A stretch of 64,000 nt of DNA from Eledone cirrhosa. Lineage: Eukaryota. The translations under genes were made by a program, and so were the position numbers. Positions 5,332-9,332 of the stretch are shown here, piece after piece (positions within the stretch are counted from its first letter, which is position 1; each line of letters opens with the position of its first letter). The DNA lies in contig OZ024742.1 in the NCBI GenBank assembly GCA_964016885.1, positions 269,700,001-269,764,000 on the forward strand, in the 5' to 3' direction. The notes under the pieces were generated by a model, which did not search any database, was not told where the DNA came from, and saw only the letters and a program-made list of their open reading frames with translations.

Positions 5332-8300
5332 TTGGAATAAATGCTCTGAAATAGCGATATATATGTGAATATAGACATAGAATATTCGAAAATATTCTGT
5401 ATGTTTATAATAAACATTTTGAAGACCTAATCGCTATAGAATAGAATACGTCACGTATTACAATTAGGTTCTCGATAAAAGCAAGGGAAGTAATCTACGC
5501 GTTTCATTCTTGTTAGAAATCATCAGGACTACATATCCAGTGCTTTTATCGAGAATGACACAGCTAGAGACTTATAGAATACTTAGCTGTGTACAGGAAC
5601 TGGTTTGAAAGAGCGGTTGCCGGTCCGGCAGAAATTAGAAATTGGAATAAATGCTCTGAAATAGCGATATATATGTGAATATAGACATAGAATATTCGAA
5701 AATATTCTGTATGTTTATAATAAACATTTTGAAGACCTAATCGCTATAGAATAGAATACGTCACGTATTACAATTAGGTTCTCGATAAAAGCAAGGGAAG
5801 TAATCTACGCGTTTCATTCTTGTTAGAAATCATCAGGACTACATATCCAGTGCTTTTATCGAGAATGACACAGCTAGAGACTTATAGAATACTTAGCTGT
5901 GTACAGGAACTGGTTTGAAAGAGCGGTTGCCGGTCCGGCAGAAATTAGAAATTGGAATAAATGCTCTGAAATAGCGATATATATGTGAATATAGACATAG
6001 AATATTCGAAAATATTCTGTATGTTTATAATAAACATTTTGAAGACCTAATCGCTATAGAATAGAATACGTCACGTATTACAATTAGGTTCTCGATAAAA
6101 GCAAGGGAAGTAATCTACGCGTTTCATTCTTGTTAGAAATCATCAGGACTACATATCCAGTGCTTTTATCGAGAATGACACAGCTAGAGACTTATAGAAT
6201 ACTTAGCTGTGTACAGGAACTGGTTTGAAAGAGCGGTTGCCGGTCCGGCAGAAATTAGAAATTGGAATAAATGCTCTGAAATAGCGATATATATGTGAAT
6301 ATAGACATAGAATATTCGAAAATATTCTGTATGTTTATAATAAACATTTTGAAGACCTAATCGCTATAGAATAGAATACGTCACGTATTACAATTAGGTT
6401 CTCGATAAAAGCAAGGGAAGTAATCTACGCGTTTCATTCTTGTTAGAAATCATCAGGACTACATATCCAGTGCTTTTATCGAGAATGACACAGCTAGAGA
6501 CTTATAGAATACTTAGCTGTGTACAGGAACTGGTTTGAAAGAGCGGTTGCCGGTCCGGCAGAAATTAGAAATTGGAATAAATGCTCTGAAATAGCGATAT
6601 ATATGTGAATATAGACATAGAATATTCGAAAATATTCTGTATGTTTATAATAAACATTTTGAAGACCTAATCGCTATAGAATAGAATACGTCACGTATTA
6701 CAATTAGGTTCTCGATAAAAGCAAGGGAAGTAATCTACGCGTTTCATTCTTGTTAGAAATCATCAGGACTACATATCCAGTGCTTTTATCGAGAATGACA
6801 CAGCTAGAGACTTATAGAATACTTAGCTGTGTACAGGAACTGGTTTGAAAGAGCGGTTGCCGGTCCGGCAGAAATTAGAAATTGGAATAAATGCTCTGAA
6901 ATAGCGATATATATGTGAATATAGACATAGAATATTCGAAAATATTCTGTATGTTTATAATAAACATTTTGAAGACCTAATCGCTATAGAATAGAATACG
7001 TCACGTATTACAATTAGGTTCTCGATAAAAGCAAGGGAAGTAATCTACGCGTTTCATTCTTGTTAGAAATCATCAGGACTACATATCCAGTGCTTTTATC
7101 GAGAATGACACAGCTAGAGACTTATAGAATACTTAGCTGTGTACAGGAACTGGTTTGAAAGAGCGGTTGCCGGTCCGGCAGAAATTAGAAATTGGAATAA
7201 ATGCTCTGAAATAGCGATATATATGTGAATATAGACATAGAATAGTTCCTGTACACAGCTAAGTATTCTATAAGTCTCTAGCTGTGTCATTCTCGATAAA
7301 AGCACTGGATATGTAGTCCTGATGATTTCTAACAAGAATGAAACGCGTAGATTACTTCCCTTGCTTTTATCGAGAACCTAATTGTAATACGTGACGTATT
7401 CTATTCTATAGCGATTAGGTCTTCAAAATGTTTATTATAAACATACAGAATATTTTCGAATATTCTATATCTATATTCACATATATATCGCTATTTCAGA
7501 GCATTTATTCCAATTTCTAATTTCTGCCGGACCGGCAACCGCTCTTTCAAACCAGTTCCTGTACACAGCTAAGTATTCTATAAGTCTCTAGCAGTGTCAT
7601 TCTCGATAAAAGCACTGGATATGTAGTCCTGATGATTTCTAACAAGAATGAAACGCGTAGATTACTTCCCTTGCTTTTATCGAGAACCTAATTGTAATAC
7701 GTGACGTATTCTATTCTATAGCGATTAGGTCTTCAAAATGTTTATTATAAACATACAGAATATTTTCGAATATTCTATGTCTATATTCACATATATATCG
7801 CTATTTCAGAGCATTTATTCCAATTTCTAATTTCTGCCGGACCGGCAACCGCTCTTTCAAACCAGTTCCTGTACACAGCTAAGTATTCTATAAGTCTCTA
7901 GCTGTGTCATTCTCGATAAAAGCACTGGATATGTAGTCCTGATGATTTCTAACAAGAATGAAACGCGTAGATTACTTCCCTTGCTTTTATCGAGAACCTA
8001 ATTGTAATACGTGACGTATTCTATTCTATAGCGATTAGGTCTTCAAAATGTTTATTATAAACATACAGAATATTTTCGAATATTCTATGTCTATATTCAC
8101 ATATATATCGCTATTTCAGAGCATTTATTCCAATTTCTAATTTCTGCCGGACCGGCAACCGCTCTTTCAAACCAGTTCCTGTACACAGCTAAGTATTCTA
8201 TAAGTCTCTAGCTGTGTCATTCTCGATAAAAGCACTGGATATGTAGTCCTGATGATTTCTAACAAGAATGAAACGCGTAGATTACTTCCCTTGCTTTTAT

Positions 8301-9332
8301 CGAGAACCTAATTGTAATACGTGACGTATTCTATTCTATAGCGATTAGGTCTTCAAAATGTTTATTATAAACATACAGAATATTTTCGAATATTCTATGT
8401 CTATATTCACATATATATCGCTATTTCAGAGCATTTATTCCAATTTCTAATTTCTGCCGGACCGGCAACCGCTCTTTCAAACCAGTTCCTGTACACAGCT
8501 AAGTATTCTATAAGTCTCTAGCTGTGTCATTCTCGATAAAAGCACTGGATATGTAGTCCTGATGATTTCTAACAAGAATGAAACGCGTAGATTACTTCCC
8601 TTGCTTTTATCGAGAACCTAATTGTAATACGTGACGTATTCTATTCTATAGCGATTAGGTCTTCAAAATGTTTATTATAAACATACAGAATATTTTCGAA
8701 TATTCTATGTCTATATTCACATATATATCGCTATTTCAGAGCATTTATTCCAATTTCTAATTTCTGCCGGACCGGCAACCGCTCTTTCAAACCAGTTCCT
8801 GTACACAGCTAAGTATTCTATAAGTCTCTAGCTGTGTCATTCTCGATAAAAGCACTGGATATGTAGTCCTGATGATTTCTAACAAGAATGAAACGCGTAG
8901 ATTACTTCCCTTGCTTTTATCGAGAACCTAATTGTAATACGTGACGTATTCTATTCTATAGCGATTAGGTCTTCAAAATGTTTATTATAAACATACAGAA
9001 TATTTTCGAATATTCTATGTCTATATTCACATACATATCGCTATTTCAGAGCATTTATTCCAATTTCTAATTTCTGCCGGACCGGCAACCGCTCTTTCAA
9101 ACCAGTTCCTGTACACAGCTAAGTATTCTATAAGTCTCTAGCTGTGTCATTCTCGATAAAAGCACTGGATATGTAGTCCTGATGATTTCTAACAAGAATG
9201 AAACGCGTAGATTACTTCCCTTGCTTTTATCGAGAACCTAATTGTAATACGTGACGTATTCTATTCTATAGCGATTAGGTCTTCAAAATGTTTATTATAA
9301 ACATACAGAATATTTTCGAATATTCTATGTCT
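5332..9332. mobile_element. Retrozyme array A2: 310 bp unit, 4 kb head-to-head palindrome
   Basis: ~6.2 minus units (HHRs at 5490+310n, 6 copies), junction ~7244, ~6.7 plus units (HHRs at 7313+310n, 7 copies); near-identical units with CTGATGA core. Confidence 0.92.

What the first reader, a model, noticed from the sequence alone, without database searches (positions are those of the whole stretch)
5332..9332. Rolling-circle signature: both arms of one insertion share private variants
Seen: all 13 HHR-bearing units of array A2, on both arms, have CTGATGA and gaacctaatt, while the neighbouring array A1 has CTGAAGA and gaatctaatt. Units within an array are almost identical. The 33282 array likewise has its own variants on both arms. 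Inference: each array was written in one recent event from a single template type, with ~6-7 RT laps per arm, rather than by gradual satellite expansion.
Basis: inference. Interest (0 to 1): 0.75.

Follow-up and report, generated by a model that had tools for sequence, protein, structure and literature searches.

The report
Ribozyme circle copied into both ends
This is one of over a thousand back-to-back stacks of a 310-letter repeat that carries a predicted self-cutting RNA motif, and each stack repeats one version of the unit on both sides, likely because a Penelope-type jumping-gene enzyme copied a single small RNA, probably a circle, round and round into both ends of a DNA cut.

Summary
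Sequence facts hold: A2 is a head-to-head pair of arms (6.2 and 6.8 laps of a 310-bp hammerhead unit) in (TA)n, and all 13 units carry CTGATGA and GAACCTAATT. Only the second marker is private (13 of 21 genome-wide hits; the other 8 are scattered laps). CTGATGA is the family majority. In 98 sister insertions, 93 have two arms. All 92 visible second ends lie 26-47 nt short of the first: the Penelope-like (PLE) 'tail' footprint. Arms share a haplotype in 51 of 54 arrays (shuffled mean 6.9). Variants are either single-lap or whole-array. Whole-array ones are enriched for A>G on the ribozyme strand (9/29 vs 7/101) and break no predicted pair (0/29 vs 31/101). This points to one structured RNA monomer, probably edited, read repeatedly. 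Steady satellite growth is rejected for ordinary arms, but the longest arms show later duplications, and two arrays fit a linear template. Lap number is exponential, not 6-7. No RNA data; helper PLE not found. It is a non-LTR retrozyme; the scan reported this family and reading before on other DNA.

The parts
5331..7244 (-). A2 tail arm: 6.17 laps of the 310-bp unit, inner end at unit position 112, outer end at position 165 joined to (TA)n (position 1 = base after the predicted cleavage site)
7244..9336 (+). A2 short-end arm: 6.75 laps, inner end at unit position 205, outer end at position 127 joined to (TA)n
7244..7244 (.). Head-to-head inversion junction of A2 (1-nt overlap)
7660..7969 (+). 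Reference monomer (predicted 310-nt RNA, 34% GC; MFE -75.1 kcal/mol, z -5.7)
7933..7975 (+). One type I hammerhead: helix I GTAGTC/GATTAC, core CTGATGA...GAAA, helix II with AACA loop, palindromic loop III (ACGCGT), predicted cleavage after 7969. Same motif ends at 7349, 7659, 8279, 8589, 8899, 9209 (+) and at 5496, 5806, 6116, 6426, 6736, 7046 (-)
   Evidence: no Rfam hit at gathering score
7687..7687 (+). C28, the one marker private to A2 (present in all 13 laps that cover it; lies in a predicted stem)
4409..5330 (.). (TA)n tract between the tail ends of A1 and A2, with 21 ATTCATA variant units on +
9337..10689 (.). (TA)n tract right of A2, with the same + strand ATTCATA bias (12 vs 3): one older tract likely split by the insertion
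3355..3464 (-). A1 short-end arm, 0.35 lap (unit 30-139)
3467..4408 (+). A1 tail arm, 3.04 laps ending at unit 165; a separate, older insertion of the T284A sub-lineage
13919..16534 (.). 472-bp hammerhead family, two-arm insertion with ends at about unit 254 and 315 in (TA)n
33278..34458 (.). The '33282 array': 472-bp family, 0.4-lap inverted arm plus 2.1-lap arm; right end not in (TA)n
10906..13831 (.). Truncated copy of a young autonomous RT + GIY-YIG PLE (Neptune-like by recalled motifs; 745-aa ORF in full copies) with the same two-arm, two-end build; no sequence shared with the 310-bp unit

Best explanation
A2 is one insertion of a 310-bp non-coding hammerhead retrozyme whose two head-to-head arms carry one unit sequence, likely written by a Penelope-like (PLE) reverse transcriptase that primed from both ends of a cut (TA)n tract and ran about 6-7 laps each way on a single RNA monomer, probably a circle. 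Shown: two divergent arms; fixed and different outer ends (unit 165 and about 130); (TA)n targets; one haplotype per insertion; seamless lap joints; exponential arm lengths; microhomology at the centre. Inferred: (1) arrays are transcribed, and the hammerheads cut monomers (probably as dimers, through the palindromic loop III) which are ligated into circles; (2) some monomers are A-to-I edited in stems; (3) a PLE protein nicks both strands of (TA)n and starts cDNA at two sites about 35 nt apart, as the Anolis PLE does in vitro; (4) each RT circles the template until it stops, and the two cDNAs are joined by microhomology or short fill-in; (5) very long arms later gain duplications at the DNA level. 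A2's template would be a monomer cut from one lap that carried C28.
For: Architecture: 93 of 98 tail-anchored loci have an inverted second arm; 92 of 92 visible second ends lie at unit 118-139, none at 165; 90 of 92 are in TA. There are 1,027 and 1,426 exact end-plus-TA junctions genome-wide, reversed controls 0. An autonomous PLE in this genome has the same build (6 of 6 copies inspected for ends). Single-unit bottleneck: 51 of 54 arrays share a haplotype across arms (shuffled 6.9); 85 simple loci give 123 whole-array events, 112 singletons and 12 intermediate patterns; 62 testable singletons are not mirrored in the other arm. C28 is fixed in A2 only and otherwise exists as 8 scattered laps. 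RNA level: whole-array variants break 0 of 29 confidently predicted pairs against 31 of 101 singletons (p=1e-4). A>G on the ribozyme strand is 9 of 29 distinct whole-array variants against 7 of 101 singletons (p=0.002; 16 of 38 origins on a tree). A276G, A20G and A259G recur on 3-4 backgrounds, fill whole arrays (12 arrays, plus one with a boundary artefact and one mixed), and never occur as an isolated lap in about 2,700 other site-laps. Read-through: 5 of 170 inner breakpoints lie within 3 nt of the cleavage site (3.3 expected); 1 of 845 lap joints has a change. Centre overlap is 2.2 nt against 0.76 by chance (56 junctions without insert).
Against: Two arrays have heterogeneity mirrored from the outer ends (L092: two outer laps of one haplotype, then another haplotype, in both arms; L075: one variant), which a monomer circle does not give simply. 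In L066 and L101 the arms differ, so two templates are sometimes used. Arms of 19 or more laps show repeated variants and block duplications (L055, L056, L079, L036), and L031 (10 laps) has a 3-lap repeat. Some singletons may be assembly errors, which weakens the unmirrored count. Four of 98 loci lack a second arm and one is cut by a gap. No excess of changes at the ligation joint (6 hits against 17 at a control G). The helper PLE was not found. The A>G excess could be selection for G-U pairs rather than editing, and origin counts depend on the tree and on recombination.
Confidence: 0.7

Rival explanations
1. Same PLE twin priming, but the template is a linear, uncut multimer transcript of a donor array, so the daughter copies the donor's laps.
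For: Mirrored patterns in L092 and L075; arm lengths correlate (rho 0.32, p=0.003); the Anolis PLE uses uncleaved RNA in vitro and does not need its ribozyme (PMC11167929); seamless joints are expected here too.
Against: 62 testable singletons unmirrored against 2 mirrored loci; no donor array with 7 or more C28 laps in this assembly; putative edits are all-or-none, not lap-by-lap; this route cannot by itself fix a new variant in every lap.
Confidence: 0.12
2. A short twin-primed insertion (1-2 laps per arm) is expanded afterwards at the DNA level by slippage or unequal exchange.
For: Explains shared haplotypes; block duplications exist in long arms (27-lap offset in L079, 7-lap in L056, 3-lap in L031); proposed as local amplification in bioRxiv 10.64898/2026.07.22.740005.
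Against: 9 of 91 polymorphisms in 3-19-lap arms are multi-lap against 35 expected from steady growth, and the 9 come from 4 loci; length is unrelated to singleton density (rho -0.01, n=70); 17 of 54 arrays of 6 or more laps are invariant; lengths form one exponential continuum. A very fast burst right after insertion is not excluded.
Confidence: 0.1
3. The RT reuses a linear, ribozyme-cut monomer by jumping from its 5' end back to its 3' end, with no circle.
For: Gives the same all-or-none variants; template jumps are proposed for PLEs (PMC3846280).
Against: No pile-up of breakpoints or scars at the cleavage site (5 of 170; 1 of 845); jumps between molecules would make mosaics, which are rare.
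Confidence: 0.06
4. Homogeneity is an assembly collapse or polishing artefact.
For: Array lengths were not checked against raw long reads; some duplicated blocks could be misjoins.
Against: At least 30 distinct array haplotypes; A2's marker is nearly absent elsewhere; structure-preserving, strand-biased variants are not an assembly pattern.
Confidence: 0.02

Closest known systems
Metazoan non-LTR retrozymes (PMC7229834, passages and Discussion read; PMC7761336, passages; bioRxiv 10.64898/2026.07.22.740005, parts 1-3 of 5)
   Same: About 300-bp low-GC tandem units, a type I hammerhead in each, no ORF, dispersed. The proposed cycle there is circle -> RT -> tandem cDNA, with PLEs as the candidate helper.
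   Different: In the text seen, those papers describe no inverted two-arm insertions, fixed end pair, (TA)n target or variant-based test ('inverted' occurs 0 times in PMC7229834 and only in reference titles of the other two). The rolling step is a hypothesis there, and the preprint also invokes local amplification. Supplements (e.g. Fig. S9) were not seen. RNA is shown there, not here.
EN+ Penelope-like elements (PMC8557442, passages; PMC11167929, parts 1-2 of 4; PMC3846280, passages)
   Same: Inverted 5'-truncated arm, 30-40-bp tail at one end only, (TA)n bias, ribozyme upstream of two RT start sites, both strands nicked and extended in vitro.
   Different: No RT/EN ORF; up to 45 laps per arm instead of partial tandems; the hammerhead has a 4-nt palindromic loop III (canonical form in PMC4209133, part 1 of 4 read), not the minimal PLE form; no sequence match to the PLE copies examined.
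LINE-1 twin priming (recalled, no paper read)
   Same: Two cDNAs primed from the two target ends and joined by microhomology give an inversion.
   Different: L1 primes once at the poly(A) end and once at variable internal sites on a linear RNA; here both starts are fixed and both arms exceed unit length.

Membership tests
Metazoan non-LTR retrozyme | Type I hammerhead motif in every repeat | tested here: met
   13 of 13 units; helices I and II fold. Rfam gave no hit at gathering score.
Metazoan non-LTR retrozyme | Short (150-450 bp), low-GC tandem unit without ORF or LTR | tested here: met
   310 bp, 34% GC; no ORF of 120 aa or more within the array body
Metazoan non-LTR retrozyme | Dispersed mobile copies | tested here: met
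   1,027 tail-end junctions genome-wide
Metazoan non-LTR retrozyme | Self-cleavage of the transcript | not testable with these tools
   Indirect only: no whole-array variant hits the core or breaks helix I/II (0 of 29, against 11 of 101 singletons)
Metazoan non-LTR retrozyme | Expression as linear and circular monomer RNA | not testable with these tools
   Needs RNA reads; none were available to lay
Penelope-like element (autonomous) | RT plus GIY-YIG ORF | tested here: not met
   No ORF in the unit: non-autonomous
PLE-mobilised insertion | Inverted 5'-truncated arm | tested here: met
   93 of 98 loci
PLE-mobilised insertion | 30-40-bp tail at one end only | tested here: met
   Second end at 130 (40), 139 (29), 125-128 (19), other (4) of 92, against 165; modal gap 35 nt; 132-139 is ATATATAT and merges with the target
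PLE-mobilised insertion | (TA)n target | tested here: met
   90 of 92 second ends; the first end was selected on TA
PLE-mobilised insertion | Homology to the pLTR of an autonomous PLE | tested here: inconclusive
   None among the fetched loci; only a few PLE families were sampled
Satellite DNA grown by unequal exchange | Variants shared among subsets of neighbouring units; length grows with age | tested here: not met
   9 of 91 against 35 expected; rho -0.01; met only in the longest arms

The most novel reading that the evidence does not exclude
Each array is a lap counter of rolling-circle reverse transcription in an animal germ line: a PLE RT dimer primes both ends of a break on one ribozyme-made RNA circle, and A-to-I edits made on that one molecule are written into every lap and inherited. 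RNA editing would then be the largest single class of heritable change in this element, and a broken palindrome centre could be re-primed on a second circle (L092).
Probability: 0.5. Interest if true: 0.8.

Novelty: new variant of a known kind. Interest (0 to 1): 0.6.

Why it matters
How hammerhead repeats spread in animal genomes has been a hypothesis (circle, RT, PLE helper), and PLE tandem/inverted insertions are called unexplained in PMC8557442. This family gives more than a thousand young copies on which that route leaves countable marks: two fixed start sites, exponential lap numbers (mean 1.3-1.8 kb, a likely in vivo read-out of RT run length) and whole-array A>G changes. It turns the proposal into a defined in vitro test and suggests that RNA editing can be fixed in the genome through a circle.

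Tried and rejected
Position 28 as an RT-error hot spot: suggested by the first 13 loci, but those were found with A2's own unit, and 0 of 98 unbiased loci show it. Ligation scar at G1: 6 hits against 17 at a control G. Telomerase-like synthesis of the flanking TA from the start site: ATTCATA units in 1 of 92 short-end flanks; strand bias was the same on both flanks in 14 cases and mirrored in 4. An antisense PLE ORF end inside the unit, suggested by 38282-38800: relatives match the ORF part only. A118G and A88T as private markers: they are sub-lineages (357 laps; 4 arrays plus 1 lap). A donor for L092's haplotype switch: the DNA search rang on nothing, not even L092, so it is uninformative. 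Helper search through the related 316-bp family: 10 hits, none with a PLE protein match. Sequencing runs: no RNA holder listed. No listed contig spans A2's junction in 4 runs, which proves nothing. Pfam gave only a sub-threshold GIY-YIG hit for one PLE piece, so the clade names rest on recalled motifs. Dropped rows: 2 of the first 100 listed tail ends were already held and not counted; L188 and L190 (complex junctions) were left out of the variant counts; L092 was also left out of the tree.

Full report
Observation. A2 spans 5331-9336 as two divergent arms of a 310-bp unit: 1,914 bp on the minus strand and 2,093 bp on the plus strand, meeting at 7244. All 13 hammerhead units read CTGATGA and GAACCTAATT; A1's three read CTGAAGA and GAATCTAATT. 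Numbering from the base after the predicted cleavage site, these are positions 284 and 28. A2 has three single-lap changes, A1 five. The ribozyme is a type I motif with a palindromic loop III, matching the canonical form described in PMC4209133. Rfam gives no hit. The monomer folds better than all 100 shuffles (z -5.7).

How private the markers are. The C28 word occurs 21 times in the 3.0-Gb assembly: 13 in A2 and 8 as isolated laps in six other arrays. T284 is the majority state (61 of 81 arrays), and A284 a sub-lineage of 18. Two other markers that looked private in the sample proved to be sub-lineages. The 33282 array belongs to a 472-bp family; its short left arm shares subfamily indels with the right arm.

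Architecture. The unit's end at position 165 joined to TA occurs 1,027 times, and ends at 127-139 joined to TA 1,426 times, with 0 reversed-pattern controls. I fetched 98 of the first 100 listed 165-ends, all on contig C1. 93 have an inverted second arm. All 92 visible second ends lie at 118-139, none at 165, and 90 are in TA. This is the PLE footprint: an inverted truncated arm and a 30-40-bp tail at one end (PMC8557442), explained in vitro by two RT start sites with both strands nicked and extended (PMC11167929). A young autonomous RT + GIY-YIG family in this genome (150 near-identical hits listed, 745-aa ORFs) has the same two ends about 90 nt apart, but shares no sequence with the unit. 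The helper is unknown. Junctions without insert overlap by 2.2 nt against 0.76 by chance; 29 of 85 have short inserts.

One template per insertion. In 85 simple loci (849 laps) there are 123 whole-array variant events, 112 singletons and 12 intermediate patterns. 51 of 54 arrays with at least two laps per arm share a haplotype across arms (shuffled mean 6.9, max 16). Arm lengths fit exponentials (means 4.2 and 5.8 laps; KS p 0.21 and 0.54) and are unrelated to singleton density. Steady duplication predicts 35 multi-lap variants among 91; 9 are seen, from four loci. Gradual satellite growth is therefore rejected for ordinary arms. It does act on long ones: L079 (45 laps) has a block repeated at 27 laps, and L055, L056, L036 and L031 have repeats.

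Circle or linear template. For a single monomer read repeatedly: 62 singletons that could be mirrored in the other arm are not; A2's haplotype exists elsewhere only as single laps; inner breakpoints ignore the cleavage site (5 of 170, 3.3 expected); and lap joints are seamless (1 of 845). Whole-array variants break none of 29 confident pairs against 31 of 101 singletons. A276G, A20G and A259G arise on 3-4 backgrounds, all in stems after a U (the ADAR preference is recalled). They fill whole arrays and are never isolated laps in about 2,700 other site-laps. If these are edits, one edited molecule was read at every lap; if they are selected wobble pairs, a one-unit bottleneck at the RNA level still follows. 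Against: L092 and L075 have patterns mirrored from the outer ends, which fit a linear multimer, or, for L092, re-priming at a broken palindrome centre on a second template (untested). L066 and L101 show that the arms can use different molecules. There is no ligation scar. Singletons (0.04% per base) may include assembly errors. Circularity itself is inferred; nothing here shows RNA.

Comparison and novelty. The unit meets every sequence criterion of a metazoan non-LTR retrozyme. The circle-RT-tandem cDNA cycle with a PLE helper is proposed in PMC7229834 (Discussion), and descent from PLE pLTRs in bioRxiv 10.64898/2026.07.22.740005. Eight literature searches and term look-ups showed no report of two-arm retrozyme insertions with fixed ends or of whole-array A>G marks. 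The library lacks most subscription papers, and supplements were not read. Earlier notes of this scan reached the same reading for this family on other DNA; they are not independent support. Verdict: a real feature, a known class, and a variant architecture that makes the proposed mechanism testable. Confidence is about 0.9 for PLE twin priming, 0.85 for a single-monomer template and 0.7 for a circle.

Noticed in passing
window 10906-13831; L134-L140: Young autonomous PLE family (745-aa ORF, at least 136 copies identical over 150 aa, hammerhead-like core near the 3' end); 6 of 6 copies inspected show a short and a long end about 90 nt apart in TA, a longer tail than the 30-40 bp in print.
   Followed up: partly
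window 1643-2820, 13919-16534, 33278-34458, 49592-50136: Related 422/472-bp hammerhead families with the same two-arm build; their two ends lie about 60 nt apart.
   Followed up: partly
window 38130-38385, 40952-41382, 52592-52979; L217-L226: Older 316-bp relatives (75-80% alike) keep the two hairpins before the start sites with apparent compensatory changes (by eye) and have a variant core (CTTTGA): a candidate RT-binding structure.
   Followed up: partly
L092 (G000:C1:136,719,500-136,725,900): Both arms switch haplotype after the two outer laps; linear template, simultaneous template swap, or re-priming at the palindrome centre.
   Followed up: partly
L066, L101: Arms differ: A276G in all 7 left laps but only the 2 inner right laps (L066); T51A in one arm only (L101).
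   Followed up: partly
L103 and G000:C1:183,180,600-183,192,100: The 311-bp A118G sub-lineage has long arrays (23, 38, 15, 16 laps in the first four listed), perhaps a better RT template.
   Followed up: no
L039 junction (G000:C1:165,008,530-165,008,580): About 50 bp of non-unit sequence is captured between the arms; L038 has a duplicated junction, and L038 and L040 share the same 7-bp junction.
   Followed up: no
window 18660-23990: Gypsy-type LTR retrotransposon on the minus strand (RT, RNase H, protease by Pfam) with a 49-bp tandem repeat in each terminal repeat.
   Followed up: no
window 44300-48915, 54975-57830, 59500-63410: Decayed PLE copies of two further types, and a LINE-like element with endonuclease- and RT-like frames (names by recalled motifs).
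   Followed up: no
window 18206-18465, 28916-28950: Further hammerhead cores of another family, two of them in inverted orientation.
   Followed up: no
runs X4, X5, X6: Each holds the unit as one low-depth contig that closes on itself, in three other organism codes; the run kind is not on record, so tandem DNA, circle or contamination cannot be told apart.
   Followed up: no
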